From Candidatus Bathyarchaeia archaeon (GTDB taxonomy: Archaea; Thermoproteota; Bathyarchaeia; Bathyarchaeales; Bathycorpusculaceae): a stretch of DNA of 64,000 bases. The notes under the pieces were generated by a model that saw nothing but the letters and a program-made list of their open reading frames with translations, had not been told where the DNA came from and ran no database searches. The position numbers were made by a program, and so were the translations under genes. This document shows positions 26,994 through 53,564 of this stretch, piece by piece. Location of the stretch: assembly GCA_038882975.1 (NCBI GenBank), contig JAVZNE010000002.1, positions 32,001 to 96,000 on the forward strand, read 5' to 3'. Each line of letters begins with the position of its first letter. Position 1 is the stretch's first letter.

Positions 26994-29585
26994 GTGACAA
27001 AAATGTATAGGATTGATGATGGAACATTGCGGTACACAAACTGTACTAAGGGTGGACCGGTATTTGTTTATGTAAAAGATGGAAGAATTGTTCGTATTGA
27101 ACCCCTTGAATTGAGCCCTGAGGATGCTGAGTCATGGGTTATCGAGGCAAGGGGAAAAACCTTTAAACCGCCAAGGAAAGCCAACGTAGCCGCTTGGACC
27201 CTGTCCGTGAGGGCGAAGGTTTACGCACTCAATAGGATTTTGCAACCACTAAAAAGGGTGGACTTCAACCCGGAGGGACAAAGAAACCCGGAGAATCGAG
27301 GAAAATCCACATATGAACCAATCAGTTGGGAAGAGGCCCTAAACATTTTAGCCTCAGAAATTGAACGCATAAACAAAAATTATGGCCCCGCGGCAATTTT
27401 AACAACGGCTTCTTCGCATCACAGCTGGGGGAACATAGGCTATAGAACAAGTGCATATCACAGGTTTATGGCAATTCTAGGAGCAACGTATGCAGACCAC
27501 AACCCTGACAGTTGGGAAGGCTGGTTCTGGGGTGCAATGCACCACTGGGGTTTTTCATGGAGACTTGGAATACCCGAACAATACGACCTCCTTGAAGACG
27601 CCCTAAAATATTGCGAAATGATAGTTTTCTGGTCATGCGACCCCCACGCCACGCTTGGAACATACGGAGGCCACGAATCAGTCCCGTGGAGATTTTGGCT
27701 TAAAGAATTAGGAGTAAAAATGGTTTTTATTGATCCCTTTTATAATTGGACCGCCATAAACTTCGCCGACAAGTGGCTAGCTCCAAAGCCCGGAACAGAC
27801 ACAGCTCTAGCCTTAGCCATCGCCTATACATGGATAAAAGAAGATACATACGACAAAGACTACATTGAAAAACGCACCTTAGGATTCGAAAAATGGAGAA
27901 GCTACGTTTTAGGCGAAGAAGACGGCGTTCCAAAAACTCCCGAATGGGCGGAAAAAATATGCGATGTACCAGCCCGCGAAATAAGAGCCCTTGCAAGGGA
28001 ATGGGCAAGAAAACGCACAATGCTTGCCTGTGGACGCGGCGGAATGGGAGGCGCCTGCAGAGCCTCCTACGGCCATGAATGGGCGAGAATGATGGTCTTA
28101 TTAGCAGCCATGCAAGGATTAGGAAAGCCTGGACGAAACATCTGGGGGACAACAGCGGGCGTGCCATACAACGGGAAATTCTACTTTCCAGGCTATGCTG
28201 AAGGGGGAATCTCCGGCGACGCAACAAACACAGCGGCAGCTACCTTACTTTCAAGAGGAATAACCAGGATGCCTGTCAGATGGACGACAAACGAGCCTCA
28301 AGGACAGCATGTTCTAAGGCTTTTAATTCCGGAGGCTGTTTTAAACCCGCCGTTGAGATGGAGGGGAAAAGGCTTTGCGGGAGCTTTCCCGGAAGCCCAA
28401 TTCAAAGAGTATAAGTACCCAGAGGATGGATTCCCACTGGCTAGAATGTTCTGGAGGTACGGCGCATCCTATATCTCAACAATGACCGAGACCAACAGAT
28501 GGGTTAAAATGTACAGAAGCCCGAAGCTCGATTTTGTCGTTTGCCAAGCAATATGGTTTGAAGGGGAAGCCAAATTTGCGGATCTAATCCTTCCAGCATG
28601 TACAAATTTTGAAAGATGGGACATTGGAGAGTGGGCAACTTCCGGCGGCTACACTCCGCACTTGTCCTACTCGACAAACCATCGCATCATAGTACTACAA
28701 ATGAAATGCATAGAACCCTTAGGAGAATCGAAATCCGACTACGAAATATTCGCCGCCGTCGCGAAAAAACTTGGATTTTACGAAAAATACACGGAGAACG
28801 GCATGACCGAGTTAGATTGGGTTAAAAGAATGTTTGAAGTCACAGACTTGTCAAAATATATTACGTGGGAGGAATTTTTTAAGAAGGGATATTTTGTCGT
28901 GCCTCTGCCTAAACCATACAAGCCAACTCCGGCGCTGAGATGGTTCGCCGAGGGGAGAAAAAGAGACACGCCAGACACTGGCCTCGCGGGAGGTAGAATA
29001 ATGGGTATACCTGATGGATACGGTCTGGGAACAACATCTGGCCTCCTAGAGTTTGAAGCTAGCACTTTAAAAAGGTTTAACCCAAATGATCCTGAAAGGC
29101 CGCCCGTACCCAAATACATTCCTTCATGGGAAGGCCCGGAAAGCCCGATTTCACAAAAGTATCCCCTTCAGCTGATTTCTCCGCATCCAAGGTATTCGTT
29201 TTTCACACAATATGATGGAAAAGACAGCTGGATTAACGATATCCCAGACCACAGACGCAAGGGTAAGGATGGTTATTACTATTGGATACTTAGGATAAAC
29301 CCTGTAGATGCAAATAGAAGGGGCATCTGCAATGGAGACATCATTAAAGTTTACAACGACAGAGGTGCCGTGATATGCATAGCTGAGGTTACCGAAAGAA
29401 TACGTCCCGGAGTTGTGCATGCCTATGAGGGAAGCGCGGTTTACGACCCTATAGATGAGCCTGGAAAGTCTCCGGACCGTGGAGGTTGCGTAAACTTGCT
29501 GACCCCTTCACGTCTAATGTCTAAAAATGCCAGTGGAATGGCGCCCAACTCGTGTCTTGTGGAAGTTTGCAAGTTAGGAGAGTAG
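26994..29585 (+). CDS. athL: Pyrogallol-phloroglucinol transhydroxylase (pyrogallol hydroxytransferase) large Mo subunit
   Basis: Long blocks match the recalled Pelobacter AthL sequence: GGPVFVYVKDG, SSHHxWGNxGYR, YADHNPDSWEGW, WGFSWRLGxPEQYDLLED, YFPGYAEGGISGD, LPACTNFERWD; no N-terminal Fe-S motif. Confidence 0.9.
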   Translation: MTKMYRIDDGTLRYTNCTKGGPVFVYVKDGRIVRIEPLELSPEDAESWVIEARGKTFKPPRKANVAAWTLSVRAKVYALNRILQPLKRVDFNPEGQRNPENRGKSTYEPISWEEALNILASEIERINKNYGPAAILTTASSHHSWGNIGYRTSAYHRFMAILGATYADHNPDSWEGWFWGAMHHWGFSWRLGIPEQYDLLEDALKYCEMIVFWSCDPHATLGTYGGHESVPWRFWLKELGVKMVFIDPFYNWTAINFADKWLAPKPGTDTALALAIAYTWIKEDTYDKDYIEKRTLGFEKWRSYVLGEEDGVPKTPEWAEKICDVPAREIRALAREWARKRTMLACGRGGMGGACRASYGHEWARMMVLLAAMQGLGKPGRNIWGTTAGVPYNGKFYFPGYAEGGISGDATNTAAATLLSRGITRMPVRWTTNEPQGQHVLRLLIPEAVLNPPLRWRGKGFAGAFPEAQFKEYKYPEDGFPLARMFWRYGASYISTMTETNRWVKMYRSPKLDFVVCQAIWFEGEAKFADLILPACTNFERWDIGEWATSGGYTPHLSYSTNHRIIVLQMKCIEPLGESKSDYEIFAAVAKKLGFYEKYTENGMTELDWVKRMFEVTDLSKYITWEEFFKKGYFVVPLPKPYKPTPALRWFAEGRKRDTPDTGLAGGRIMGIPDGYGLGTTSGLLEFEASTLKRFNPNDPERPPVPKYIPSWEGPESPISQKYPLQLISPHPRYSFFTQYDGKDSWINDIPDHRRKGKDGYYYWILRINPVDANRRGICNGDIIKVYNDRGAVICIAEVTERIRPGVVHAYEGSAVYDPIDEPGKSPDRGGCVNLLTPSRLMSKNASGMAPNSCLVEVCKLGE

Positions 29586-29589
29586 AGCT

Positions 29590-30450
29590 GTGAAAAAATG
29601 GGTTATGATCGTAGATGTGGATAAGTGCATAGCATGCTATGCTTGTTTCACTGCATGTAAAGATGAATTTTGGAGCAATGACCACCTCCCATATTCAGCT
29701 GGCATCAAAAAACGGGAGCAGACACTCATAAGGCTCGAAAAAAGGGAACGAGGGAAATTTCCCCATGTGAAAGTGGCTTATATGCCAGTTCTGTGCATGC
29801 AATGCGATAACCCCCCATGCTTGAAAGCAGCTGAGGATAACGCTGTATACAAAAGGGAAGACGGAATAGTGATAATAGATCCCGTAAAAGCCTTGGGGCA
29901 GCAAGAGATAATGAAGGCATGCCCGTATAACGCGGTTTCATGGAACGACGAGAAAAACCTCCCCCAAAAGTGCACTTTTTGTATTCACAGAGTCGAAGAT
30001 GGTAGTGCACCTCGATGTGTCCAAGCATGTCCCAGCGGAGCACTGTTATTCGGCGATTTAAACGACCCAAAAGGCGAAATAAGCAAAGTCTTGAAGTCAG
30101 GTTTAGCAGAGCCATTTCACCCAGAATACGGCACTAAGCCAAACGTTTACTACATGGGCCTTTATAAAATGACAAAATATTTCATAGCGGGGAACGTTGC
30201 ATTTAAAGAAAACGACGAATGTGCGGAAGGAGTAGAGGTGACCTTGATAAACGAGGAAACCGGTGAAACTAAAAAATTAAAAACTGATACCTTCGGAGGC
30301 TTTGAATTTGACGGGTTGGAACCAAACACAAGATACCGCATAAAGTTAGATTACCCGGGATACGCCTCTAAAGAAATGCGACTGGAACTCGACGGTGCAG
30401 ACGTATATCTTGGGTACGTGTTTATAGAAAAGAGCAACAAAGACGCTTAA
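29590..30450 (+). CDS. athM: Pyrogallol hydroxytransferase small Fe-S subunit
   Basis: DmsB-like with one cluster motif degenerate (DPVKALGQQEIMKACPY), plus C-terminal beta-sandwich domain (ECAEG...TDTFGGFEFDGL) as in AthM. Confidence 0.87.
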   Translation: MKKWVMIVDVDKCIACYACFTACKDEFWSNDHLPYSAGIKKREQTLIRLEKRERGKFPHVKVAYMPVLCMQCDNPPCLKAAEDNAVYKREDGIVIIDPVKALGQQEIMKACPYNAVSWNDEKNLPQKCTFCIHRVEDGSAPRCVQACPSGALLFGDLNDPKGEISKVLKSGLAEPFHPEYGTKPNVYYMGLYKMTKYFIAGNVAFKENDECAEGVEVTLINEETGETKKLKTDTFGGFEFDGLEPNTRYRIKLDYPGYASKEMRLELDGADVYLGYVFIEKSNKDA

Positions 30451-30506
30451 AACGTTAAATGTTAGATATAAAGATTTAATGGTTCTAAATCTTGGAGGTG
30501 AAATTG

Positions 30507-32960: not shown

Positions 32961-32963
32961 TGC

Positions 32964-33311: not shown

Positions 33312-33331
33312 CATTCCGTAAAAAATAACAG

Positions 33332-34234
33332 TTACTTCACGGAGAATGTGGTTCTGGTTTCAACGGCGGACGCCCGGATATGCACTTTCTTCCTACACTT
33401 AACATTTAATTCTTTAACCAAAGCTTTATACGAGGTAAGCCTCTCTAATGCTTCGTTCCACGCACCAGATTTTATTTCCGAATGTAAAATTTCAGTTCTT
33501 TCATGGACTATAGCCTTCGGCGGGCAAACCTCTTGACATGCACCACAATATATACAGGATTTTCTATCCACAACTGGTTTTCCCTCATCGTCCAAGCTTA
33601 TACACTTTGAAGGACAAATATCAACGCAGATTTGACATTTTTCTGGGCATAAACTTGTATTCACTTTTATGAGTCCGTTCATAGGCTTTACGACTTTGAT
33701 GGCATCAAAGGGGCAGGCTATTTCACACTTTTTACAAAAGATGCAAAGCTGCTTATCCACTTGAACGTCAATTATTTTCGGCTTTTTAAGGGGCCCCTCG
33801 CCTTCGGTAATCACTTTTACCGCTTTTGTTGGGCAAATCTCTTGGCAAGCTAGCTCGCAAGTGGGATCGCATAAAGTAATGTTAACAGCAATGTCTTTAA
33901 CGATTTTCGGAAAGGCTTCATTTTCAATAACTGGGATTCTTTCTTTTCCATCAATTTCTATCTTAATAGCGTTTAGTGGACACAGAACAACGCACTCACC
34001 GCAAAAATGGCATTTTTCGGCGTCTATGTCGATTTGGCATCTTCTCAGCAATCTGCCTTCATGAACCTCGGCGGGAAATTTTGTAACGGCTTTCTCTGGG
34101 CAAATTTTTTCACAAATTCCGCATCCAACACAAAGTTCAGAGTTTAGCATTAAAACTTGACGAGATGACAAAGTAGCCCTTTCTAATGTTAGTTTTTTGC
34201 GTGATTTAGATTTAATAATAGTTCTTGATACCAT
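33332..34234 (-). CDS. Polyferredoxin (FwdF-like, six 4Fe-4S motifs)
   Basis: Six CxxCxxCxxxCP-type motifs. Confidence 0.85.
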   Translation of the reverse strand: MVSRTIIKSKSRKKLTLERATLSSRQVLMLNSELCVGCGICEKICPEKAVTKFPAEVHEGRLLRRCQIDIDAEKCHFCGECVVLCPLNAIKIEIDGKERIPVIENEAFPKIVKDIAVNITLCDPTCELACQEICPTKAVKVITEGEGPLKKPKIIDVQVDKQLCIFCKKCEIACPFDAIKVVKPMNGLIKVNTSLCPEKCQICVDICPSKCISLDDEGKPVVDRKSCIYCGACQEVCPPKAIVHERTEILHSEIKSGAWNEALERLTSYKALVKELNVKCRKKVHIRASAVETRTTFSVK

Positions 34235-34435
34235 GTAAGCTTCCTGCGTAGAGGATTTTAGGAAACTACTCCCTTGATATAAAGCTTTACTTAGATTAAT
34301 TCCATGTCAGTGAAAATGAGAATCTTCTTAAGTAGGAAATGGCACAAATCTGCTTTAAATCAGATAGACATATAAGAATTGATGGGAAAAACCAAGGTGA
34401 GGCTGTAAAGGCACGTTTAAGCGGAGCTTGATGGT

Positions 34436-37578: not shown

Positions 37579-37588
37579 AGGTGAAGGC

Positions 37589-40212: not shown

Positions 40213-40317
40213 GCATATCGCCTTGGAAATCCAGTACGTTAAAGTTACGTTAAAGGTGGGGAATATTTATTAGTTGCTGAATTCAAATAAGAGTTTACAA
40301 GTTGAAAGTGATTTTAA

Positions 40318-42109: not shown

Positions 42110-42185
42110 CAACAACCAGCAGTCCTTTAGTCTCCGGCTTTAAACGCACAAATCTTATAGAAGAAAAGGAAACTCTATATCAGCC

Positions 42186-43235: not shown

Positions 43236-43249
43236 GAACTGATGCAACC

Positions 43250-43945
43250 ATGGTGAATTCAAAAGAAGAGACCTTTGAAAACAGCCTTTTATGCGACACC
43301 CTAAAGAACTGCGGTAAAGTGTACTTTTTACTAGGAAAGATTTATGAAAAGGAAGTGACCGCTAACCTTCTTAAATCTCTTAGCGAAAGCATAACATTTT
43401 TTAGAAGCAAAAAGTTAAGCGACGAGGAATTAGAAAAAGGAATTGAACTGTTGGACGAGTATTTAAGTAAGCAAAGAAGCCGTGGCTTCGAGTGTGCAGA
43501 AGCAGAGTTGGCAGTTGATTATGCCAACCTTTTTCTAGGAGTTAAGGGCTTGCCTCATCCTTCAGAGTCAGCCTACAAGTGCGGTTTTATAATGGCAAGT
43601 CCTTGCGAGGAAGTACTTCGAACATATCAAAAGGCAAATCTTAACCTTAAAGAGGATTATAAAGAGCCAGCAGACCACATTGCCGTAGAACTATACTTCA
43701 TGGCAAACCTGTGCTGGAAAACCGCAGAAAATTTAGCCAAAAATAAGAAACACGAAGCCAAAAAGTGTTTACAAATAATGAAAGACTTTCTAAACAATCA
43801 TCTACTATCATGGATCCCGTCGTTCACTACGAACATTTCGAATTTAGCTATAACGGATTTTTATAGAGGTCTAGCAATAATCACTAAAAGGTTTGCCGAG
43901 CTTAACAAAGCCTTAACGGAACAAGCGCTTAAACTTTTAGCCTAA
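43250..43945 (+). CDS. TorD/DmsD-family Mo-enzyme maturation chaperone
   Basis: DYANLFLG, PSESAY, EPADHIAVELYFMA, HLLSW, FY. Confidence 0.9.
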   Translation: MVNSKEETFENSLLCDTLKNCGKVYFLLGKIYEKEVTANLLKSLSESITFFRSKKLSDEELEKGIELLDEYLSKQRSRGFECAEAELAVDYANLFLGVKGLPHPSESAYKCGFIMASPCEEVLRTYQKANLNLKEDYKEPADHIAVELYFMANLCWKTAENLAKNKKHEAKKCLQIMKDFLNNHLLSWIPSFTTNISNLAITDFYRGLAIITKRFAELNKALTEQALKLLA

Positions 43946-44023
43946 AACGCTGTTTACGGAAGTTTTTAAATAATTGCTCTTTAGTAACTGTTATCCAAAA
44001 CAATTGTAGAGGGGTAGGAGTCA

Positions 44024-46720: not shown

Positions 46721-46726
46721 ACATAT

Positions 46727-47569
46727 ATGGGGAAAGTCTTTGTCATAGACGTAGCTAAGTGCAATGGTTGCTACTGCTGCCAAATAGCATGCAAAGATGA
46801 ACATGTGGAAAACGATTGGAGACCCTACACGAAACCGCAGCCTGACACTGGACATTTTTGGCTGAAAATTGAAGAACAGGAAAGGGGCAGCACCCCCAAA
46901 GTTAGAGTAACCTACATACCGCGCCTCTGTATGCACTGCGATAGCCCGCCATGCATCACGGCATGCCCTGTCAGGGCGATAACAAAGAGGGCGGATGGAA
47001 TAGTCCTCATAGATCAAGCGAAATGTAATGGATGCAAACAGTGTCTGGATGCTTGTCCATACAATGCGATATATTTTAACGACCAATTTAAGGTCGCCCA
47101 AAAATGCACCATGTGCGCTCACATATTGGATGGAAAGGATCCACTTGTTAAAGTTCCAAGATGCGTTGAAGTCTGTCCCCATAACGCCATAATTTTCGGA
47201 GAGTATGCCGAACTGAAAGACTTAATTGAAAAAGCGGAATTTCTAAAACCCGAATACGACACCAAACCGCGAGTCTACTATCTAAACATGCCGAAGCCAT
47301 TCATAGCGGGAGAGGTTTACGACCCAGAACTGGATGAATGCATTGAAGGAGCAAAAGTGGTTGCAGTGAACCTGAGAACTGGGAAAACACATCACACCGA
47401 GACTGACGAGTTCGGAGACTTCTGGCTTGAAAACCTAGAGTGGGGAAACACTTACAAGGTTAATATAGAAAAGGAAGGCTACGTTCCGTGGTCTATAGAC
47501 GAAGTAAAAACGGATAAAGATGTAAACTTAGGCGAAATAACATTACTGAAAAAACCCAAAAAACGCTGA
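46727..47569 (+). CDS. AthM-like small subunit retaining four 4Fe-4S motifs
   Basis: CNGCYCCQIAC, CMHCDSPPCITACP, CNGCKQCLDACP, KCTMC...C; C-terminal ECIEGA...TDEFGDFW domain. Confidence 0.88.
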   Translation: MGKVFVIDVAKCNGCYCCQIACKDEHVENDWRPYTKPQPDTGHFWLKIEEQERGSTPKVRVTYIPRLCMHCDSPPCITACPVRAITKRADGIVLIDQAKCNGCKQCLDACPYNAIYFNDQFKVAQKCTMCAHILDGKDPLVKVPRCVEVCPHNAIIFGEYAELKDLIEKAEFLKPEYDTKPRVYYLNMPKPFIAGEVYDPELDECIEGAKVVAVNLRTGKTHHTETDEFGDFWLENLEWGNTYKVNIEKEGYVPWSIDEVKTDKDVNLGEITLLKKPKKR

Positions 47570-47637
47570 CGAGGAAACTATTTTAGCCAAAATGGCAAAG
47601 TTATAAAGCAAAGGCTATGCATTTGGCGAGTGGTGAT

Positions 47638-47973
47638 ATGATAAAAGTAAAATTTGAAGAGGCTAAACCATACGACGCCCGTGGACACTTTAACATGGTT
47701 GCATTGAGACTCCAACACAAAGAAAACACTGGGGTCGAAAAATTTTGGGTCGGTTTGTCACATTTTCTTCCCGGCGGAGGGGCAGAAATGTCTGCCAGCA
47801 ATTTCGAGAGAGTGTATGTAATGCTATCTGGCAAAATTACCGTAATAGCAGAGGACGGAAAGGAAATAGAGCTTGAACCCCTTGATTCAATTTACATACC
47901 ACCCGGCGAAAAGCGCTCACTAATCAACAGAACTAACATGCCGGCGAGCATGCTGGTCATTTGCAGCACTTAG
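47638..47973 (+). CDS. Cupin-domain protein
   Basis: FWVGLSHFLPGGGAE, ERVYVMLSG, DSIYIPPGE. Confidence 0.85.
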   Translation: MIKVKFEEAKPYDARGHFNMVALRLQHKENTGVEKFWVGLSHFLPGGGAEMSASNFERVYVMLSGKITVIAEDGKEIELEPLDSIYIPPGEKRSLINRTNMPASMLVICST

Positions 47974-48027
47974 ACCAAAAACAAAATAAGGATGGTTCTT
48001 TCACCACTTATGGCGGAGAGTGAATTT

Positions 48028-48894
48028 ATGCGTGAAGATGTGCTGGAAAAGTATTTGCATGGATTTTTAGACAAAAGCGCCCTTGGCAAGCCAGAAGATG
48101 CCCTCAAAAAGCCGCTAGCTAAAATCTTTGGAAAGAATGTTGAGATTTTCGATTTAACACAGCCTTTCAGTGGGATGACACCAATATGGCCTTACGCAGC
48201 TGGAAACCCGCAGGTCACAAGGCTACGTTCTCATAACCATGATCGTGTGGTGGCACATTCTATAACGCATACAATGCACATCGCGACACATGTGGATGCA
48301 CCGCTTCACGTTGAAGAGGGCTACCCATCAATTGACCAAATGCCTTTGGAGCGTTACATAGGAGATGGTGTTGTCGTCTCAATTCCTAAGAAAACATGGG
48401 AAGTGATTACCCCTGAAGATCTTGAGAAGGTTGACCCTCCAATATTGGAGGGCGACATAGTGATAATCAACTCTGGTTGGCATGTTTACTATGGAGACAG
48501 CACTCGTTACTTCTGTTATGCCCCAGGATTATACAAGGATGCGGCAGAATGGTTTGTCAAGAAGAAAGTCAAAGGTGTTGGTGTTGACGAGCCCGCCATT
48601 GATCATCCGCTTGGAACGAGGCTTGTCCAGACAGCAGGGGGCTTCCAGCCTCTCTTACCATGGCTGATTGAAGCGTACAAGAAAGCTACTGGAAGAGATG
48701 TCTATCAAGATTTCCCATACTGGGAGCCATGTCACAGAATACTATACACGCATGGAATCTTTGGAATAGAAAACGTTGGAGGAGAAATAGACAAGGTAAC
48801 TGGCAAGAGATGTGTCATAGCTGCTTTTCCGCTCAAATGGATTGGGGGCGACGGGTCAATGGTCCGCTTAGTAGCCATGGTGGAGAAAAGGTAG
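48028..48894 (+). CDS. Cyclase-family (kynurenine formamidase-like) metal hydrolase; candidate dihydrophloroglucinol cyclohydrolase
   Basis: HIATHVDAPLH metal motif, VSIPKK.WEVIT, DHPL, WEPCH, ENVGG, GDGS. Confidence 0.85.
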   Translation: MREDVLEKYLHGFLDKSALGKPEDALKKPLAKIFGKNVEIFDLTQPFSGMTPIWPYAAGNPQVTRLRSHNHDRVVAHSITHTMHIATHVDAPLHVEEGYPSIDQMPLERYIGDGVVVSIPKKTWEVITPEDLEKVDPPILEGDIVIINSGWHVYYGDSTRYFCYAPGLYKDAAEWFVKKKVKGVGVDEPAIDHPLGTRLVQTAGGFQPLLPWLIEAYKKATGRDVYQDFPYWEPCHRILYTHGIFGIENVGGEIDKVTGKRCVIAAFPLKWIGGDGSMVRLVAMVEKR

Positions 48895-48905
48895 GGAGGA
48901 TAACC

Positions 48906-49676
48906 GTGGAGGACTTGTTCAGGCTTGACGGCAAAATAGCAGTTGTGATAGGCGGTGGTGGAGGTATAGGAAGAAACCTCGCCGAGGGATTAGTTCGATA
49001 CGGTGCAAAAGTAGTCATAGCCAGCAGAAACCTAGAAAACCTAGAAAAAGTGGCTAGAGAAATAAGCTCAACCTATAATGGCGAAGTCACTGCTTTTCAA
49101 GTTGACGTTACAAACGACGAAAGTGTAGCGCGATTAAGGGACCAAGTGGTATCAAAGTATGGCACTGTTGACATCCTAGTAAATTCACAAGGATATAACG
49201 TGAAAAGCTCTGCGGCAGAGTTCCCAACAAATGAATGGAACACGTTATTTGACATCAACGTTAAAGGCACAATGCTGGCATGCCGAGAGTTTGGAAAAGT
49301 AATGATTGAGAAAAGAAAGGGAAAAATAATCAACATGTCATCGGTCAGAGGTATCCGCGCAACAAAATGGCCCGGCAACCTTGGCTACTGCACAACAAAA
49401 AGCGCTGTAGACATGATTACAAAAGCTTTGGCGGCTGAATGGGCTCCATACAACGTTAACGTTAACGCCATCGCTCCGGCATGGGTGGATACAGGCTTTT
49501 CTCCAAGCTTAAGAGACCCCGCCCGTTTAAAAATAGCCCTAGAAAGCATTCCCATGGGAAGAATCGCTACACCTAAAGATGTAGTTGGCGTATGTGTCTT
49601 TCTCGCATCACCTGCGTCAGACTATGTAACTGGCCAAATAATCTATGTGGATGGCGGACTTACCCTCATAGGGTAA
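48906..49676 (+). CDS. NADP(H)-type SDR; candidate phloroglucinol reductase
   Basis: GGGGGIG, ASR (basic residue typical of NADPH preference), SQGYN, SSVRG, YCTTK; GTG start after GGAGG. Confidence 0.85.
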   Translation: MEDLFRLDGKIAVVIGGGGGIGRNLAEGLVRYGAKVVIASRNLENLEKVAREISSTYNGEVTAFQVDVTNDESVARLRDQVVSKYGTVDILVNSQGYNVKSSAAEFPTNEWNTLFDINVKGTMLACREFGKVMIEKRKGKIINMSSVRGIRATKWPGNLGYCTTKSAVDMITKALAAEWAPYNVNVNAIAPAWVDTGFSPSLRDPARLKIALESIPMGRIATPKDVVGVCVFLASPASDYVTGQIIYVDGGLTLIG

Positions 49677-49779
49677 TGAAACTATTCTTTCCTTGTTCCT
49701 TTTTCTTTATGAAATCGTTAAAGCCTTTGTAGTGAACGCCCAGAAGGTATACAAAGAAAACGGGAGATAGAGTAAGCGT

Positions 49780-51012
49780 TTACCACCATTTTTCGAGAAT
49801 TATGCATCCGTAGGCGCCATATGCGCCGTAAGCTGTACACGCCCCAATTTTAAGGTTTTTCTTCGCTTGCCTTTCTTGAGCTTCTCCTCTGAGCTGCCTA
49901 AACAACTCGTGGATCATCATAAAGGCTTGGCTCATCACCGCCTCGCCGAAGGATGCCGTCCCGCCACTTAGGTTTACTGGCAGTTTGCCATCGTGCCTGA
50001 TCTGCTTCTCCTTAATGAGTTTGTCTGTTTCTTCCCTTTCCCATCCCATTAGTTGGTCTATCCAGTTTATGGTGTGGAAGCAGCTTGTGTCATGACATTC
50101 AACAATGTCGATGTCCTCAGCTGTGATACCAGCCAGTTTGTAGGCTTTTTCTACTGGTTTGCGCCACTCAGTGAAAGGTTTAAGCCCTTTTGCTCCACCT
50201 TGTGTGGAGAAAACGCGGAGCCGTGGTATGGGCTCGCCATAAACTGGACCCCCTACCGCTGAAGCCGCTATCTTTACTGGTTTATCCGTTATTTTCCTCG
50301 CCGTGTCGCCGTCTGTTATAACAGCTGCTCCTCCACCGCTGCTAGTTGCGCATATCATATACAAGTGTAAGGGGTCGCAGACAACGGGTGAACTTAGAAC
50401 GTCTCTGGCTAAAAACACTTTTTTGTATCGAGCATATGGGTTTCTAGCGCCATACTCGCTTTGAATCTCCTTCACTAAGGCCATAAGCTCTTTTATACTG
50501 TCAACATCTTGTCCCATTTCGTACGCGCGTCGCCTTGCCCACATAGCCCAGTAGGCGGGATTGGTCGCGCCAATAACTTTTATTGCAGCAGCGTATGGAT
50601 CCGGGTCTAGAATCGACTGCCCTGGCAGGTAAAACCCCTTTGGAGAATTGTCTATCCCGGCGATAAGCACCTTTTTAAGCGAGCCAGTTTTTATCATGGA
50701 ATCCGCAACAGCAAAGGATATGGAAGCACTTGCACAAGCTGCACAAACATTTACACATTGCGCGTTACTTGTGCCTATTCTTTCTGCAAGCCTATGAGCA
50801 AAATGTTGAGCACTTGTTGTGATATAAGATGGATTGTCAAAGGGAATTGCCGTAGTGTTAGTGATTATCGCATCAAGCTCTCCCGGCTTCATTTTAGCTT
50901 CCCTGAGAGCCCTTACGGCAACTTCTGCAAGCTTATCTATAAGCAGCGGAGTGGGCTGACCAGCTTCAACCCACTCTGTTATTGCAACACTAACAATTGC
51001 ACTTTCAGGCAT
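49780..51012 (-). CDS. SCP2-type thiolase (lipid-transfer-protein-like subfamily)
   Basis: AACASAS, GATNPAY, ICATS, ECHD, VNLSGG..SFGE, QLRGEA. Confidence 0.88.
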   Translation of the reverse strand: MPESAIVSVAITEWVEAGQPTPLLIDKLAEVAVRALREAKMKPGELDAIITNTTAIPFDNPSYITTSAQHFAHRLAERIGTSNAQCVNVCAACASASISFAVADSMIKTGSLKKVLIAGIDNSPKGFYLPGQSILDPDPYAAAIKVIGATNPAYWAMWARRRAYEMGQDVDSIKELMALVKEIQSEYGARNPYARYKKVFLARDVLSSPVVCDPLHLYMICATSSGGGAAVITDGDTARKITDKPVKIAASAVGGPVYGEPIPRLRVFSTQGGAKGLKPFTEWRKPVEKAYKLAGITAEDIDIVECHDTSCFHTINWIDQLMGWEREETDKLIKEKQIRHDGKLPVNLSGGTASFGEAVMSQAFMMIHELFRQLRGEAQERQAKKNLKIGACTAYGAYGAYGCIILEKWW

Positions 51013-51013
51013 G

Positions 51014-51430
51014 TTACATCACCGGCTCAAAGAAATAGCTTAAATAGACGCTTTCGTCGTCCTCGTAAAGTTTGTCGATTTTAAGTCTTAACCTCATGCC
51101 TATCTTAAGCAGCTTTTCATCTGGAACTTTTATTCTGCTGACAACTATTATGCCTTCAGGAAGCTCCACGGCGCCGACCACATAAGGTGCTTTATGGTAT
51201 TGGAACGGCTCGCGTAAACTGTATGCATGAACAGTATATGTATACAGCGTCCCCTCAGTGCTCAAGAACCACTCCTCAACATTGACGCTGTGGTCACACT
51301 CCGGGTTATTGCAAACGTTAGACTTTGGAAATTGTATGCTTCCACATTTAGGACATCTACTACCGATTAGCCGCGGATTTTCAGACGGCCATTCAAAAAG
51401 TCCATCCATTATAGGAACTTCTTTCTTCAT
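51014..51430 (-). CDS. DUF35 Zn-ribbon/OB-fold thiolase partner
   Basis: RCPKCG..QFP...C..C, GTLYTYT, PYVVGAVELPEG, IGM. Confidence 0.9.
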   Translation of the reverse strand: MKKEVPIMDGLFEWPSENPRLIGSRCPKCGSIQFPKSNVCNNPECDHSVNVEEWFLSTEGTLYTYTVHAYSLREPFQYHKAPYVVGAVELPEGIIVVSRIKVPDEKLLKIGMRLRLKIDKLYEDDESVYLSYFFEPVM

Positions 51431-51544
51431 ATTAACTAACCTCTTAAAAAGTGAGCTGCTACTGATTTTAATTTTTTGGTAATAGAAAACTAAATTAACA
51501 AAGGGTGAATACATGAAAGCGCAGCACGATAAAGAGGGTGAGTG

Positions 51545-52339
51545 ATGGACTCGGAATTTAAACGCATAATTTATGAGAAAAAGGACGGTGTCGCATGGAT
51601 CACCTTAAACAACCCAGAACGCTACAACGCCCTCGATTACGAGATGCGAAAGGAATTAAAAACTGCTCTAGAAGACGTGGGCAAAGATGGCAACATAGTT
51701 GCGGTCGTCATTAAAGGATCAGAAAAAGCATTTAGCGCCGGAGGGGATGTTCGCGCTTTTGCAGAAATGAAGCCTTTTGAGGTTCTAGAACTGATTAGAG
51801 ATGTTGGAACAGCCTTTGTCTTGGGAAAAATCATTAGAGACATGCCAAAACCAGTCATAGCAGCAGTAAGCGGATACTGTTTGGGAGCAGGGTTTGAACT
51901 AGCTCAAGCATGCGATATAATATTCGCCTCAGAAGACGCTGTTTTCGGCCAGCCCGAAATAAACGTTGGACTTATCCCCGGCGGTGGTGGAACCCAGAGG
52001 CTGCCAAGATTCATTGGAGAAAAGAAGGCTAAGGAATTAATTTTTACTGGAGATAGATTGTCAGCCAAAGAAATGGCCGAATTAGGTTTGATCAACAAAG
52101 TTGTTCCGTTAGATCAGCTCATGAACACTGTTAACGAGTTTATTGAAAAAATTAAAAGCAAAAGTCCGTTGGTAATTGGAATCGCCAAGGAAGCAATAAA
52201 CCAATCCTTGGAAACAAGTTTATCCGAAGGCTTCAAATACGAGGCCCAACTCTTCGCACAGTTGTTCAGCACCGAAGACCAAAAAGAAGGGGCAAAGGCA
52301 TTTCTAGAAAAAAGAAAGCCTGTTTGGAAGGGAAAATAA
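51545..52339 (+). CDS. Enoyl-CoA hydratase/isomerase (crotonase)
   Basis: AFSAGGD, CLGAGFELAQACD, FGQPE..GLIPGGGGTQRL. Confidence 0.93.
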   Translation: MDSEFKRIIYEKKDGVAWITLNNPERYNALDYEMRKELKTALEDVGKDGNIVAVVIKGSEKAFSAGGDVRAFAEMKPFEVLELIRDVGTAFVLGKIIRDMPKPVIAAVSGYCLGAGFELAQACDIIFASEDAVFGQPEINVGLIPGGGGTQRLPRFIGEKKAKELIFTGDRLSAKEMAELGLINKVVPLDQLMNTVNEFIEKIKSKSPLVIGIAKEAINQSLETSLSEGFKYEAQLFAQLFSTEDQKEGAKAFLEKRKPVWKGK

Positions 52340-52415
52340 CCGAGAGAAACATGTGGCAAGAATAGTCCAACCTAAATAATGTTTATAAATGTTCAACGGA
52401 GAAAACTAATCCAAC

Positions 52416-53564
52416 GTGAGTTGTATGATAAAAGCACCCTTAGAAGGAATAAAAGTACTCGATTTCACACATGAAGTTGCTGGACCACACTGCACAATGC
52501 TACTAGGTGATCTTGGTGCCGATATAATAAAGGTGGAGATGCCCGGGAAAGGAGACAGAGGAAGACACTGGGTTGGCATGAGAGAAACCATATTTATTAC
52601 AAATAACAGAAACAAGAAAAGCATTGTTTTAGACCTCAAAAGCGAAGAGGGAAGAAAAATAGCGTTCGAACTGGCAAAAAGGGTTGATGTGTTAGTTGAA
52701 AATTTTGTGCCTGGAACTATGAAGAAATTCGGCTTGGACTATGAAAGCATCAAAAGGGTTAACCCGAGAATAATTTATTGCTCGATTTCTGGATATGGGC
52801 AAGACGGCCCCTACAGTAGCCGCCCGGCATGGGATCCGATCATCGAGGCTGAATCCGGGTTAATGTCGCTTACTGGAGACCCAGAACCATGTTTGCCTTC
52901 AAGGATACCCGCCTCAATCATAGACTACGGCGCCGGTGTGTATGCAGCATTAGCAATAGTTTCAGCTTTACTGTATCGAGAGAAAACTGGAAACGGACAA
53001 ATGATTGACATCTCAATGCTTGATATCTCCGCGCTTTGGGCGGGATATTGGATTGCTTACAGTTCAATAACAGGGGAAGTCCGAGAAAGAATGGGTTCAG
53101 CTGCTCCTGTCGGAGCACCATACCAAGTTTTCAGAACAAAAGACTCCTACATTTTCATCGCAGCCTTTGAAGATGAACACTGGAAGAAATTATGCCAAGT
53201 TATAAAGGCGGAAAGTCTTTTGAACGATCCCTTGTATTCAACGAGGGAGAGCAGAGCTGCAAACAGAAAAATCCTTGTGGAAAAACTTGATAAGATAATC
53301 AGCGCATGGAACACTAAGGATTTGGTGGATGCTCTAATTGCAGCTGGAGTGCCATGTGCCCCCGTAAACAATACATTGGAAGTGGCAAGCCACCCACAAC
53401 TACTCTACCGAGGCATGATTGTTGAAATAGAATATAGGGGACAGAGAGTAAAAGTTCCAGGGATACCCTTCAAATTCTCTGAATGCCAATTAAAAATTAG
53501 GCACCTTCCACCGGAAATAGGGCAACACACAGAGGAAATTTTACATGCCCTCGGATTCAAATAG
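52416..53564 (+). CDS. Class III (CaiB/BaiF) CoA-transferase
   Basis: PLEGIKVLD, AGP, NRNKKS, ENF.PG, SISGYGQDGP, IIDY. Confidence 0.93.
   Translation: MSCMIKAPLEGIKVLDFTHEVAGPHCTMLLGDLGADIIKVEMPGKGDRGRHWVGMRETIFITNNRNKKSIVLDLKSEEGRKIAFELAKRVDVLVENFVPGTMKKFGLDYESIKRVNPRIIYCSISGYGQDGPYSSRPAWDPIIEAESGLMSLTGDPEPCLPSRIPASIIDYGAGVYAALAIVSALLYREKTGNGQMIDISMLDISALWAGYWIAYSSITGEVRERMGSAAPVGAPYQVFRTKDSYIFIAAFEDEHWKKLCQVIKAESLLNDPLYSTRESRAANRKILVEKLDKIISAWNTKDLVDALIAAGVPCAPVNNTLEVASHPQLLYRGMIVEIEYRGQRVKVPGIPFKFSECQLKIRHLPPEIGQHTEEILHALGFK

What the first reader, a model, noticed from the sequence alone, without database searches (positions are those of the whole stretch)
26994..53564. Candidate archaeal anaerobic pyrogallol to phloroglucinol to acetyl-CoA (polyphenol) degradation pathway
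Seen: an AthL/AthM pair (26994-30450), a co-oriented cupin + cyclase + NADPH-type SDR trio (47638-49676), then SCP2-thiolase/DUF35, crotonase and class III CoA-transferase genes, plus Liv-type and MFS transporters. Known: Pelobacter acidigallici transhydroxylase converts pyrogallol to phloroglucinol. In fermenting bacteria (Eubacterium oxidoreducens, Clostridium scatologenes) an NADPH SDR reduces phloroglucinol, a cyclohydrolase opens the ring to 3-hydroxy-5-oxohexanoate, and that is cleaved to acetyl-CoA units. Inference: this island encodes the route in an archaeon, probably downstream of lignin/tannin monomer O-demethylation. I know of no biochemically described archaeal phloroglucinol pathway. 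No gallate decarboxylase or 3-hydroxy-5-oxohexanoate dehydrogenase is visible in the window.
Basis: partly seen in the sequence, partly recalled or inferred. Interest (0 to 1): 0.92.

Follow-up and report, generated by a model that had tools for sequence, protein, structure and literature searches.

The report
Archaeal pyrogallol and phloroglucinol breakdown island
A hot-spring archaeon carries genes that closely match the bacterial enzymes for breaking down plant trihydroxybenzenes without oxygen, but the last steps appear to use a different, untested set of CoA-dependent enzymes.

Summary
Genes 26994-30450 are full-length counterparts of both subunits of the solved Pelobacter acidigallici pyrogallol-phloroglucinol transhydroxylase. 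The catalytic and substrate-pocket residues are kept.

The cupin, cyclase and SDR at 47638-49676 belong to the gene set that accompanies dihydrophloroglucinol cyclohydrolase (DPGC) homologues in 79 fetched loci. In trees, the cyclase and the SDR both sit inside the context-defined DPGC and phloroglucinol reductase (PGR) clades.

The organism is an archaeon. The closest relatives are Bathyarchaeia genomes assembled from metagenomes (MAGs), and the sample is a hot spring.

This type is found in archaea and is not tied to the pathway in relatives.

The known lower enzymes are missing: there is no BKACE lyase in the genome and no adjacent TfD. A CoA-transferase, a crotonase and an atypical thiolase/DUF35 pair stand in their place. 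This swap recurs in 7 archaeal loci.

A canonical phloroglucinol cluster in Archaeoglobus was already noted in 2023. I rate this a new variant of a known pathway, supported by homology and gene context only. Interest is moderate.

The parts
23709..24590 (-). Liv-type ABC permease. Candidate uptake system, together with the ORFs at 21254-23704, which I did not annotate.
   Evidence: PF02653. A 68% identical copy lies beside the AthL1 orthologue and a cyclase in L018. LivH/LivM families occur in 17-18 of 79 cyclase loci.
24706..26160 (+). Periplasmic-type substrate-binding protein of the Liv family.
   Evidence: PF13458. 75% identical copy in L018.
26994..29585 (+). AthL1: large, Mo-bis-MGD subunit. 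Candidate pyrogallol-phloroglucinol transhydroxylase.
   Evidence: 1096 bits to PDB 4v4c_A over residues 12-860 against 5-866. PF21423 first domain. Equivalents of H144, Y152, R153, D174, S175, W176 and Y404 are kept.
29590..30450 (+). AthS1: small Fe-S subunit of the transhydroxylase.
   Evidence: 196.9 bits to 4v4c_B, residues 1-277 against 1-272. Fer4_11 plus a C-terminal CarboxypepD_reg-like domain.
43250..43945 (+). TorD/NarJ-type maturation chaperone, probably for AthL2.
   Evidence: PF02613. TorD model at 101 bits, below its cut-off of 132. Conserved beside AthL2-type genes in L006, L008, L009 and L090. Fused to AthL2-type proteins in 7 listed homologues.
44024..46720 (+). AthL2: divergent AthL-like large subunit of an archaeal subfamily. 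Substrate unknown.
   Evidence: 451.5 bits to 4v4c_A in two stretches. 40-42% identical to AthL1. Keeps the H144, D174, S175, W176 and Y404 equivalents, but Y152/R153 are replaced by T/P and the W354 region differs.
46727..47569 (+). AthS2: Fe-S subunit partner of AthL2.
   Evidence: Fer4_11 + CarboxypepD_reg. 42% identical to AthS1.
47638..47973 (+). Small cupin, a conserved member of phloroglucinol clusters. Function unknown.
   Evidence: PF07883. A homologue lies within 8 kb of the cyclase in 35 of 79 loci by clustering, or in 47 of 79 fetched loci by BLAST hit to the window cupin, with no distance limit. No HxH metal motif. Invariant Y19, H24, W44, S48, Y67, R100, N104. Model pLDDT 93.5.
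47992..48894 (+). Cyclase-family hydrolase. Candidate dihydrophloroglucinol cyclohydrolase (DPGC).
   Evidence: PF04199. H96, H100, D102 and H106 are invariant, and W66-P-Y68 matches CsDPGC Trp20/Tyr22. 62% identical to the A. fulgidus homologue. Placed inside the archaeal clade that holds canonical-context loci.
48891..49676 (+). Classical SDR. Candidate NADPH-dependent phloroglucinol reductase (PGR).
   Evidence: PF13561/PF00106. Y-x3-K and an Arg in 'SRN' after strand 2. The only SDR hit in the genome. Lies within the 55-row clade of cyclase-linked SDRs (98*).
49780..51012 (-). Atypical SCP2-type thiolase-like protein. Candidate C-C cleaving enzyme of the lower pathway.
   Evidence: PF22691. 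Best PDB matches are 6esq_A (102 bits) and PhlC 5m3k_C (81 bits). Cys ('AACAS') and His-Asp are kept, but the GHP histidine is Glu in 6 of 6 cluster copies.
51014..51433 (-). DUF35 (Zn-ribbon + OB fold) partner of the thiolase-like protein. The ORF runs to 51514; the likely start is M28.
   Evidence: PF01796 + PF12172. Orthologues are 140-145 aa. Sequence.
51542..52339 (+). Enoyl-CoA hydratase (crotonase).
   Evidence: PF00378, 249 bits. 'GAGFELA' and 'GQPE' hold both catalytic Glu; the sequence is and the motif roles are recalled. Conserved in 8 loci.
52416..53564 (+). Class III CoA-transferase.
   Evidence: PF02515, 417 bits. Best PDB match is succinate-hydroxymethylglutarate CoA-transferase, 283 bits. 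Single copy in the genome.
53647..54858 (-). MFS transporter. Link to the pathway is weak.
   Evidence: PF07690. Only one locus (L024, 31% identity) has a counterpart.
18343..21265 (+). MoeA and MobA-like molybdenum cofactor genes. They supply the bis-MGD cofactor and are context, not pathway steps.
   Evidence: NCBIfam matches, none above its curated cut-off: a 'molybdopterin biosynthesis protein' model at 361 bits (cut-off 534), the MoeA model proper at 254 bits (cut-off 440), and the MobA models at 71-75 bits (cut-offs 152-164). Syntenic with an AthL2-like gene in relative G145.

Best explanation
The window comes from a hot-spring archaeon related to Bathyarchaeia. It carries an accessory island for anaerobic breakdown of trihydroxybenzenes.

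Upper pathway, supported by homology and gene context:
- AthL1/AthS1 (26994-30450) is a cytoplasmic Mo-bis-MGD/Fe-S transhydroxylase that isomerises pyrogallol to phloroglucinol.
- The SDR (48891-49676) reduces phloroglucinol with NADPH to dihydrophloroglucinol.
- The cyclase-family enzyme (47992-48894) opens the ring hydrolytically to 3-hydroxy-5-oxohexanoate.
- The small cupin (47638-47973) is a conserved helper in this cluster with an unknown role.
- A Liv-type ABC system may import the substrate.

Lower pathway, inferred only:
- The known steps are replaced. These are the free-acid dehydrogenase TfD and the BKACE lyase TAL.
- The class III CoA-transferase would make the CoA thioester of the C6 acid.
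- The crotonase and the atypical thiolase-like/DUF35 pair would cleave it to C2 and C4 acyl-CoA units.
- Those units would enter the genome's ordinary beta-oxidation and Hbd/Crt enzymes, ending as acetyl-CoA.

AthL2/AthS2 with TorD is a paralogous hydroxyl-transferring molybdoenzyme for a different, unknown phenolic substrate. It may feed the same route here.
For: **Transhydroxylase**
- AthL1 scores 1096 bits end to end against the solved large subunit.
- AthS1 scores 197 bits end to end against the small subunit.
- The H144, Y152, R153, D174, S175, W176 and Y404 equivalents are kept.

**Cyclase**
- The metal-binding H/H/D/H residues are invariant.
- The W-P-Y motif matches CsDPGC Trp20/Tyr22.
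- It is 62% identical to the A. fulgidus protein. The mBio paper names the genus Archaeoglobus as carrying the cluster.

**Gene context.** I took a census of 79 loci with a cyclase homologue. These were the best 80 of 581 confirmed stretches, which gave 79 distinct loci. Counts within 8 kb of the cyclase:

| Neighbouring gene | Loci (of 79) |
|---|---|
| SDR | 44 |
| 3HCDH (TfD type) | 36 |
| cupin | 35 |
| BKACE (TAL type) | 24 |
| AthL | 13 |

**Trees**
- Cyclase tree: the window lies in an archaeal clade (22 rows, 100*) that also holds canonical-context loci and A. fulgidus.
- SDR tree: 55 cyclase-linked SDRs, including the window's, separate from 5 unlinked SDRs at 98*.
- This SDR is the only SDR hit in the genome.

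**Lower module**
- Thiolase-like, DUF35, crotonase and CoA-transferase genes accompany the cyclase-SDR pair in 7 archaeal loci, in differing gene orders. None of these 7 has 3HCDH or BKACE within 8 kb.
- AthL1-type genes are embedded in such clusters in L024 and L011.
- The 7 variant loci and the window fall in one 9-row cyclase clade (97*).
- The genome has no BKACE match.
- A separate complete beta-oxidation operon and an Hbd-Crt pair exist elsewhere in the genome.

**Archaeal origin**
- An archaeal SRP RNA scores 183.5 bits.
- The nearest loci are Bathyarchaeia MAGs.
Against: - There is no biochemical or expression evidence.
- No characterised PGR or DPGC sequence was in my trees, so the clades rest on gene context. 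The SDR outgroup had only 5 rows and the tree used the 'quick' method.
- The SDR is as similar to Thermotoga TM0441 (1vl8, 204 bits), filed as gluconate 5-dehydrogenase, as a canonical-cluster SDR is (210 bits). Sequence alone therefore does not fix the substrate.
- The published TR(S/N) motif reads SRN here, and that position varies widely among cluster SDRs.
- W354 of the solved enzyme is Met in AthL1.
- An oxidation step is chemically required to balance the NADPH spent, and no dehydrogenase lies in the cluster.
- The thiolase-like protein lacks the GHP histidine, so ordinary thiolysis is uncertain.
- AthL2-type genes occur in relatives without any cyclase: G020 has four copies and G145 has one. 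AthL2 is therefore not tied to phloroglucinol.
- A clade of 10 bacterial cyclases 53-54% identical to the window's cyclase sits in an unrelated gene context. Identity above 50% alone does not prove DPGC function.
- The genome's only UbiD protein cannot be assigned as a gallate decarboxylase.
Confidence: 0.68

Rival explanations
1. The cyclase-SDR pair of the archaeal variant clade has shifted to a related cyclic 1,3-dione substrate, for example dihydroresorcinol (1,3-cyclohexanedione) or a substituted phloroglucinol. The CoA-transferase, crotonase and thiolase-like genes would then be a beta-oxidation-like route for a 5-oxohexanoate-type product, and AthL2 would prepare that other phenol.
For: - TfD and TAL are absent from the cluster, and BKACE is absent from the genome.
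- A crotonase has an obvious role in beta-oxidation of 5-oxohexanoyl-CoA, but none in the published route (inference).
- The archaeal SDR clade sits on a long branch (0.81, 100*).
- AthL2 has a changed substrate pocket.
Against: - AthL1 keeps the full pyrogallol pocket and lies in the same island.
- AthL1-type genes are embedded directly in variant clusters in L024 and L011.
- The cyclase keeps the W-P-Y residues named for CsDPGC.
- No acyl-CoA dehydrogenase lies in the cluster.
Confidence: 0.15
2. Only the upper genes (AthL1/S1, SDR, cyclase, cupin) serve phloroglucinol. The thiolase-like/DUF35, crotonase and CoA-transferase genes are an unrelated acyl-CoA module that lies next door. The C6 acid would be handled by the two 3-hydroxyacyl-CoA dehydrogenase homologues and other enzymes elsewhere, or excreted.
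For: - Thiolase/DUF35, crotonase and CoA-transferase sets are common in archaeal acyl-CoA metabolism. The genome has paralogues on C4, C9 and C11.
- The two 3HCDH homologues are 36-45% identical to TfD-family proteins.
Against: - The module travels with the cyclase-SDR pair in 7 loci, with rearranged gene order and cyclase identity from 59 to 88%.
- The loci with the module are exactly those that lack 3HCDH and BKACE nearby.
- The thiolase-like protein is a distinct subtype (His to Glu), only 24-31% identical to the genome's other thiolases.
- The CoA-transferase is single-copy in the genome.
Confidence: 0.12
3. The island is not archaeal. The contig is a bacterial contaminant of the MAG.
For: - Estimated contamination is 2.9%.
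- AthL1 has 69-71% identical bacterial (Chloroflexota) relatives.
Against: - The contig is 256 kb.
- The block from 38113 to 53564 is syntenic with L006, a Bathyarchaeia MAG.
- The closest cyclase, SDR, AthL1 and AthL2 homologues that carry organism names are archaeal.
- The cofactor gene block 14635-21265 is syntenic with a same-family genome, G145.
- The window also holds an RtcB ligase and a Tes/TrsS-like radical SAM gene.
Confidence: 0.03

Closest known systems
[quoted passage not shown]
   Same: AthL1/AthS1 share these features with it:
- the two-subunit layout
- the AhtL-type first domain in place of a Fe4S4 domain
- the Ser ligand with its Asp, His and Tyr neighbours
- the Fe-S subunit with a C-terminal beta-barrel domain
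- end-to-end alignment of both subunits
   Different: The host is an archaeon. W354 is Met. A further molybdopterin enzyme gene follows 42 bases downstream. AthL2/AthS2 keeps the catalytic core but not Y152/R153, has about 50 extra N-terminal residues, and comes with a TorD chaperone.
PGR-DPGC-TfD-TAL phloroglucinol cluster of Clostridium scatologenes (Zhou et al., mBio 2023, PMC10470551; abstract and sections 4 (part 1 of 3), 12 and 13 read, plus passages found by term search)
   Same: An SDR lies next to a cyclase-family hydrolase with the Trp/Tyr substrate residues. The same gene set (SDR, cyclase, 3HCDH, BKACE) appears around the window's cyclase relatives in bacteria and in some archaea.
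   Different: The cluster has no TfD and no TAL, and the genome has no BKACE. Instead there are a class III CoA-transferase, a crotonase and a thiolase-like/DUF35 pair. A cupin is also present; the word does not occur in the paper's main text.
Benzylsuccinate beta-oxidation module (BbsEF CoA-transferase, BbsH hydratase, BbsCD SDR, BbsAB thiolase + DUF35)
   Same: It combines the same enzyme families: a class III CoA-transferase, a crotonase, an SDR, and an SCP2-type thiolase with a DUF35 partner. PDB matches are BbsB 7pxp_C at 64 bits, the benzylsuccinate CoA-transferase subunit 9fn0_B at 148 bits, and BbsD 7pcs_B for a canonical-cluster SDR.
   Different: The similarity is low and is not orthology. 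There is no acyl-CoA dehydrogenase in the cluster. Here the SDR groups with cyclase-linked reductases, not with BbsCD. The composition of the Bbs operon is recalled, not taken from a call.
Archaeal acetoacetyl-CoA thiolase/HMG-CoA synthase/DUF35 complex (PDB 6esq) and PhlC of the PhlACB acetyltransferase (PDB 5m3k)
   Same: These are the best solved matches of the thiolase-like protein, at 102 and 81 bits. Both work with a DUF35 partner. The Cys nucleophile and the His-Asp motif are kept.
   Different: The conserved Gly-His of both solved proteins is Gly-Glu in the window protein and in its 5 cluster orthologues. No HMG-CoA synthase or PhlA gene lies nearby.
Resorcinol hydroxylase RhLS of Azoarcus anaerobius (RhL/PgtL family in PMC10100899; passages read)
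   Same: It is another Ser-ligated, AthL-like hydroxylating molybdoenzyme acting on a phenol. It is the obvious model for what AthL2 might do.
   Different: No RhL sequence was available to compare. A net hydroxylase would need an electron acceptor, and none is evident beside AthL2.

Membership tests
Pyrogallol-phloroglucinol transhydroxylase (AthL/BthL), tested on AthL1/AthS1 | Full-length similarity of both subunits to the solved P. acidigallici enzyme. | tested here: met
   1096 bits, residues 12-860 against 5-866 of 875. 196.9 bits, residues 1-277 against 1-272 of 274.
Pyrogallol-phloroglucinol transhydroxylase (AthL/BthL), tested on AthL1/AthS1 | Ser175 as the Mo ligand, with Asp174, His144 and Tyr404, and pocket residues Tyr152, Arg153 and Trp176. 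The roles are recalled from Messerschmidt et al. 2004, which is not held in the library. | tested here: met
   All seven positions are identical in the printed alignment and in the family alignment. Trp354 is Met.
Pyrogallol-phloroglucinol transhydroxylase (AthL/BthL), tested on AthL1/AthS1 | AhtL-type first domain without a Fe4S4 site. Small subunit with ferredoxin clusters plus a C-terminal beta-barrel domain. | tested here: met
   PF21423 at 84 bits. Fer4_11 plus CarboxypepD_reg.
Pyrogallol-phloroglucinol transhydroxylase (AthL/BthL), tested on AthL1/AthS1 | Hydroxyl transfer between pyrogallol and tetrahydroxybenzene. | not testable with these tools
   Needs an enzyme assay.
Pyrogallol-phloroglucinol transhydroxylase, tested on AthL2/AthS2 | The same substrate pocket as the solved enzyme. 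| tested here: not met
   The H144, D174, S175, W176 and Y404 equivalents are kept. Y152/R153 are replaced by T/P, and the W354 segment is replaced. Only 451 bits, in two stretches.
Dihydrophloroglucinol cyclohydrolase (DPGC) | Cyclase-family fold with the metal-binding His/His/Asp/His residues. | tested here: met
   PF04199 at 121 bits. H96, H100, D102 and H106 are invariant in 16 sequences.
Dihydrophloroglucinol cyclohydrolase (DPGC) | Trp20 and Tyr22 of CsDPGC in place of the isatin hydrolase residues Ile32 and Leu34. | tested here: met
   The window has W66-P67-Y68. W66 and P67 are invariant, while Y68 varies (F or T) in 2 of 16 sequences. The register with CsDPGC is inferred, because I had no CsDPGC sequence.
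Dihydrophloroglucinol cyclohydrolase (DPGC) | Clade membership with cyclases of PGR-DPGC-TfD-TAL clusters. | tested here: met
   Tree of 81 rows (quick method). The archaeal clade (100*) holds the window together with canonical-context loci L010, L014, L019, L020 and L023 and with A. fulgidus.
Dihydrophloroglucinol cyclohydrolase (DPGC) | Direct comparison with an assayed DPGC (A0A0E3JZE4). | not tested
   The sequence was not obtainable with the tools. C. scatologenes was not among the 80 loci kept.
Phloroglucinol reductase (PGR) | Classical SDR catalytic residues and a determinant for NADP(H). | tested here: met
   PF13561 at 210 bits. Ser and the Y-C-T-T-K motif are present, and there is an Arg in 'ASRN'. 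The motif roles are recalled.
Phloroglucinol reductase (PGR) | The TR(S/N) motif named for PGRs in the mBio paper. | tested here: inconclusive
   The window reads SRN. None of the 60 aligned SDRs has T at the first position, and the triplet varies widely even in canonical clusters.
Phloroglucinol reductase (PGR) | Clade membership with SDRs encoded beside DPGC. | tested here: met
   55 cyclase-linked SDRs separate from 5 unlinked ones at 98*. The window lies in an 8-row archaeal clade at 100*. The outgroup is small and the method was 'quick'.
Phloroglucinol reductase (PGR) | Comparison with an assayed PGR. | not tested
   No entry named PGR appears among the best 60 PDB matches, either for the window SDR or for a canonical-cluster SDR. 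No PGR sequence was obtainable.
Published lower pathway (TfD + TAL) | A BKACE-family triacetate acetoacetate-lyase. | tested here: not met
   PF05853 gave 0 matches in the own genome, which is 94.7% complete. It is also absent within 8 kb in the 7 variant loci.
Published lower pathway (TfD + TAL) | A 3HCDH-type 3-hydroxy-5-oxohexanoate dehydrogenase in the cluster. | tested here: not met
   None lies in the window. Two 3HCDH genes lie elsewhere, one in a beta-oxidation operon and one beside a crotonase.
Catalytically canonical thiolase | Cys nucleophile, His of the HDCF-type motif, and His of the GHP-type motif. | tested here: not met
   The Cys and His-Asp are kept. The GHP histidine is Glu in 6 of 6 cluster copies, while 2 of the 5 other thiolase-like ORFs of the genome (on C4 and C11) read 'KGHP'.

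The most novel reading that the evidence does not exclude
In a clade of Thermoproteota archaea, the two published lower enzymes of anaerobic phloroglucinol breakdown (TfD and the BKACE lyase TAL) have been replaced by a CoA-dependent branch that has never been tied to genes.

The proposed steps are:
1. A class III CoA-transferase activates 3-hydroxy-5-oxohexanoate.
2. The crotonase dehydrates the thioester to 5-oxohex-2-enoyl-CoA.
3. The thiolase-like enzyme, which has Glu in place of His and works with DUF35, cleaves it in a vinylogous retro-Claisen reaction to acetyl-CoA plus crotonyl-CoA.

This would give a molecular basis to the old proposal, recalled from work on Eubacterium oxidoreducens extracts, that the C6 acid is split as a CoA ester into a C4 acyl-CoA and acetyl-CoA. 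The probability given here is for a CoA-dependent lower branch carried out by these genes. The specific vinylogous mechanism is much less likely, roughly 0.15.
Probability: 0.4. Interest if true: 0.72.

Novelty: new variant of a known kind. Interest (0 to 1): 0.55.

Why it matters
Phloroglucinol is the funnel through which tannins and flavonoids are broken down without oxygen. Who can do this bears on how carbon is preserved in anoxic soils and sediments.

Outside a bioinformatic note on Archaeoglobus, the route has been treated as bacterial. A 2023 survey of the molybdoenzyme superfamily counted 0 archaeal hits among 285 in the RhL/PgtL family.

This island shows a complete-looking upper pathway in an archaeon whose closest cyclase homologues are in Bathyarchaeia MAGs. 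That group is abundant in sediments and has been linked to lignin use.

The island also points to a gene set for an alternative lower branch, and to a large archaeal family of AthL-like enzymes whose substrates are unknown. All three leads can be tested with ordinary enzyme assays.

Tried and rejected
- **PDB search for a solved phloroglucinol reductase.** None appears among the best 60 matches of the window SDR or of a canonical-cluster SDR. Both hit Thermotoga 1vl8 best, so this route gave no reference.
- **Fetching C. scatologenes or other assayed sequences.** No assayed PGR or DPGC entered the trees.
- **NCBIfam.** It has no specific model that any of the pathway proteins reaches. All the best matches are below their curated cut-offs, except glucose 1-dehydrogenase PRK07231 for the SDR (224.9 against 215 bits), which I treat as a generic SDR match.
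- **Gallate decarboxylase.** The genome's one UbiD protein passes only the general UbiD model. It reaches 294 bits on the VdcC model, whose cut-off is 650, and it has no UbiX/LpdB-like neighbour among the two I scanned. It stays unassigned.
- **Cupin function.** The sequence search of the PDB gave only weak hits. A confident model (pLDDT 93.5) matched generic small cupins (TM1459, RemF, DddK, KdgF) with no functional lead.
- **ESM Atlas for the thiolase-like protein.** It returned only generic thiolase clusters.
- **Expression.** No RNA holder was listed for 44024-53564. The DNA holders are hot-spring metagenomes, and one of them may be the source sample. I did not lay reads.
- **PhlACB-like reading of the thiolase/DUF35 pair (acetyl transfer on phloroglucinol).** I considered and set this aside. 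There is no PhlA-like gene, and the match to PhlC is only 81 bits.
- **Papers not held.** Messerschmidt 2004 and Krumholz 1987 are not in the library. Residue roles and the old CoA-ester proposal are therefore recalled.
- **Literature searches.**
  - 'Bathyarchae' + 'phloroglucinol' found 2 papers, neither on such a pathway.
  - 'triacetyl-CoA' + 'phloroglucinol' found 0 papers.
  - '3-hydroxy-5-oxohexanoate' found 12 papers. From the listing, none concerns an alternative lower pathway.
  - 'transhydroxylase' + 'pyrogallol' + 'archaea' found 12, and 'pyrogallol hydroxytransferase' + 'archaea' found 13. No archaeal enzyme is described in those I opened.
- **Supplements.** Supplementary data 2-4 of the mBio paper list the clusters and may include further archaea.

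Full report
**What is in the sequence**

- 26994-29585 is a molybdopterin oxidoreductase. Its first domain is the 'pyrogallol hydroxytransferase large subunit-like' type (PF21423).
- 29590-30450 is its Fe-S partner, with a C-terminal CarboxypepD_reg-like domain.
- Next come a cupin (47617/47638-47973), a cyclase-family protein (47992-48894) and a classical SDR.
- The SDR ORF starts at 48729. The PDB alignments begin near residue 60 and orthologues are 256-265 aa, so the start is most likely the GTG at 48891.
- After the SDR come a thiolase-like gene and a DUF35 gene on the minus strand, a crotonase, a class III CoA-transferase and an MFS transporter.
- A Liv-type permease and a binding protein lie upstream of the first pair.

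It is preceded by a TorD/NarJ-type chaperone at 43250-43945 and lies immediately upstream of the cupin.

The 13 kb between the two pairs holds other redox genes:
- a third and a fourth molybdopterin enzyme
- a polyferredoxin
- an HdrA2/FlpD fusion
- HdrB/C-like proteins
- a methyltransferase

I could not connect these to the pathway.

**Organism**

- The genome is 1.42 Mb in 15 contigs, estimated 94.7% complete and 2.9% contaminated.
- It has an archaeal SRP RNA at 183.5 bits, against a gathering score of 96.5. No SSU rRNA was found.
- The closest cyclase homologues are in MAGs labelled Bathyarchaeia (88, 80, 76 and 75% identity).
- The block from 38113 to 53564 is syntenic with one of them, L006.
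- The cofactor gene block 14635-21265 is syntenic with a same-family genome, G145.
- The DNA is held by hot-spring metagenomes.

I take the island to be archaeal.

**The transhydroxylase**

AthL1 aligns end to end with the solved P. acidigallici large subunit (1096 bits). AthS1 aligns end to end with the small subunit (196.9 bits).

I counted positions along the printed alignment and checked them in a family alignment. Both show that His144, Tyr152, Arg153, Asp174, Ser175, Trp176 and Tyr404 of the solved enzyme are all identical in AthL1. Trp354 is Met. The roles of these residues are recalled from the structure paper, which is not held.

AthL1-type proteins at 56-86% identity lie next to cyclase homologues in 11 of the 79 loci examined, both bacterial and archaeal.

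**The ring-reducing and ring-opening pair**

That scan found 581 confirmed stretches, of which the best 80 (79 distinct loci) were kept.

I called ORFs in all 79 loci and clustered those within 8 kb of the cyclase. These are the families found in the most loci:

| Family | Loci (of 79) |
|---|---|
| SDR | 44 |
| 3-hydroxyacyl-CoA dehydrogenase type | 36 |
| cupin | 35 |
| BKACE | 24 |
| Liv permeases | 17-18 |
| IclR | 16 |
| AthL | 13 |

Looser BLAST counts, over whole loci with no distance limit, were 55 for the SDR and 47 for the cupin.

The recurrent bacterial order is IclR, cyclase, cupin, SDR, 3HCDH, BKACE, often followed by AthL/AthS. This is the PGR-DPGC-TfD-TAL cluster of Zhou et al. 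2023. Its reported hosts (marine gammaproteobacteria, sulfate reducers, Mycobacterium, Archaeoglobus) match the loci I recovered.

Further support for the cyclase:
- The window cyclase has the invariant His/His/Asp/His residues.
- It has a W-P-Y motif that fits the Trp20/Tyr22 named for CsDPGC.
- In a tree of 81 cyclases (quick method), archaeal sequences form one clade (22 rows, 100*). That clade contains the window, A. fulgidus and loci with the canonical gene set.
- A derived bacterial clade of 10 rows (Nitrospinota and unnamed bacteria) has an unrelated context. It is distant from the window.

Support for the SDR:
- In a tree of 60 SDRs, 55 cyclase-linked ones, including the window's, separate from 5 unlinked ones at 98*. 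The window lies in an 8-row archaeal clade at 100*.
- It is the only SDR hit in the whole genome at E below 1e-10.

Weak points:
- No assayed PGR or DPGC sequence could be included in the trees.
- The published TR(S/N) motif reads SRN here, and that position is variable.
- The best solved match for both the window SDR and a canonical-cluster SDR is Thermotoga 1vl8, filed as gluconate 5-dehydrogenase.

**The lower pathway differs**

The own genome has no BKACE match. Its two 3HCDH genes lie elsewhere. One is in a full beta-oxidation operon on contig 4, and the other is beside a crotonase on contig 9.

Seven archaeal loci share a different arrangement. They are L006, L008, L009, L011, L015, L024 and L025, labelled Bathyarchaeia or Nitrososphaerota.
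- The cyclase is accompanied by some or all of a thiolase-like gene, DUF35, a crotonase and a class III CoA-transferase. An SDR lies next to it in 6 of the 7 loci; none was found in L008.
- The gene orders differ between loci.
- None has 3HCDH or BKACE within 8 kb.
- In L024 and L011, an AthL1-type gene is embedded in the same cluster.
- These seven loci, the window and L007 form one cyclase clade (97*).

The thiolase-like protein is only 24-31% identical to the genome's other thiolases. It keeps the nucleophilic Cys and the His-Asp motif. The Gly-His that is conserved in the solved archaeal thiolase and in PhlC is Gly-Glu in all 6 cluster copies, while 2 of the 5 other thiolase-like ORFs of the same genome keep 'KGHP'.

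The crotonase has both glutamates in the expected motifs (the motif roles are recalled). The CoA-transferase is single-copy in the genome. It is closest to a succinate-hydroxymethylglutarate CoA-transferase.

I infer that these genes replace TfD and TAL and act on a CoA ester of the C6 acid. Overall the pathway must contain one oxidation to balance the NADPH used. That step could fall on the Hbd-type enzymes elsewhere in the genome. One chemically coherent scheme runs as follows:
1. CoA transfer to 3-hydroxy-5-oxohexanoate.
2. Dehydration by the crotonase.
3. Cleavage to acetyl-CoA plus crotonyl-CoA.

This scheme is my own speculation and is untested.

**AthL2**

AthL2 is 40-42% identical to AthL1. 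It keeps the Ser ligand and the Asp, His, Trp176 and Tyr404 equivalents, but not Tyr152/Arg153. It carries about 50 extra N-terminal residues without a twin-arginine motif.

Among the best 120 database homologues, all 20 whose source names an organism are archaeal: Bathyarchaeia, Nezhaarchaeales, Nitrososphaerota and the cultured Conexivisphaera calida. Seven of the 120 are fused to a TorD domain.

AthL2-type genes lie beside the cyclase in the window, L006, L009 and L025. The link does not hold more widely:
- In a sample of 201 genomes of the class, AthL-like genes were found in 4 and the cyclase in 2, both counts including the window's genome.
- No genome other than the window's has both.
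- G020 has four AthL2-like copies, one 81-82% identical, and no cyclase. G145 has one copy beside its cofactor genes.

AthL2 is therefore a member of an archaeal family with unknown substrates. Its link to phloroglucinol here rests on adjacency alone.

**What is already known**

- The mBio paper reports the canonical cluster in Archaeoglobus (sections 12 and 13 read).
- NCBI names one Bathyarchaeota protein, 71% identical to AthL1, 'pyrogallol hydroxytransferase large subunit'.
- In contrast, a 2023 survey of the superfamily lists 285 RhL/PgtL hits, none of them archaeal (passage read).
- My searches found no paper describing such a pathway in Bathyarchaeia, or a CoA-dependent gene set for the lower branch.
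- The supplements of the mBio paper could not be seen, and they may list more archaea.

**Verdict**

The lower pathway is not the published one and remains an inference. The trait is rare in the class sampled: the cyclase was found in 2 of 201 genomes.

I rate this a new variant of a known kind. It is of moderate interest, with a testable enzymological lead in the CoA-transferase, crotonase and atypical thiolase module.

Noticed in passing
window 5651-46720: BLAST with AthL1 and AthL2 against the whole genome hit six molybdopterin-oxidoreductase catalytic-subunit genes, all in this window. They are at 5651-7876, 7982-10582, 26994-29585, 30492-32960, 38113-40212 and 44024-46720. MoeA (18343-19632) and a MobA-like gene (20213-21265) lie among them. 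No family-level search of the genome was run.
   Followed up: partly
window 47638-47973 and 35 loci: A small cupin is a conserved member of phloroglucinol clusters in bacteria and archaea. It has no HxH metal motif. Its invariant residues are Y19, H24, W44, S48, Y67, R100 and N104. The word 'cupin' does not occur in the main text of the 2023 pathway paper. Its role is unknown; a tautomerase or some other helper role is my guess only.
   Followed up: partly
proteins P0274, P0288, P0300, P0305, P0317, P0322, P0337: Seven AthL2-type homologues of 1103-1142 aa carry a TorD/NarJ domain (PF02613) fused into the catalytic subunit.
   Followed up: no
L089 (G020:C2) and three other places in G020: A 100%-complete relative has four AthL2-like genes (54-82% identity) but no cyclase match. 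This family therefore has a role outside phloroglucinol breakdown.
   Followed up: partly
L047, L050, L051, L053, L057-L059, L065, L074, L077: A clade of bacterial cyclases (Nitrospinota and unnamed bacteria) is 53-54% identical to the window's cyclase. It sits in a quite different conserved context (a 2-hydroxyacid dehydrogenase, an aminotransferase, IPP transferase and others) with no SDR, TfD or TAL.
   Followed up: no
window 1549-1638 (-) and 49-1530 (+): ARAGORN reports a 90-base tRNA with an unreadable four-base anticodon 'ccta', possibly an intron-containing archaeal tRNA. It lies next to an RtcB RNA ligase gene.
   Followed up: no
window 33332-41648: A polyferredoxin, an HdrA2/FlpD fusion, a SAM methyltransferase, a PhsA-like molybdoenzyme with its Fe-S partner, and HdrC/HdrB-like genes lie here. 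The part from 37589 to 42109 is conserved in L006 at 65-91% identity. It may be an electron-bifurcating complex. No link to the pathway was found.
   Followed up: partly
window 10897-12345: A radical SAM protein falls between the TrsS model (416 bits, cut-off 490) and the tetraether lipid synthase Tes model (334 bits, cut-off 450).
   Followed up: no
L010 (Caldarchaeum MAG): One 12 kb contig carries two cyclase-SDR pairs. One belongs to the variant-type clade and the other to the canonical archaeal type, with a 3HCDH and a cupin between them.
   Followed up: no
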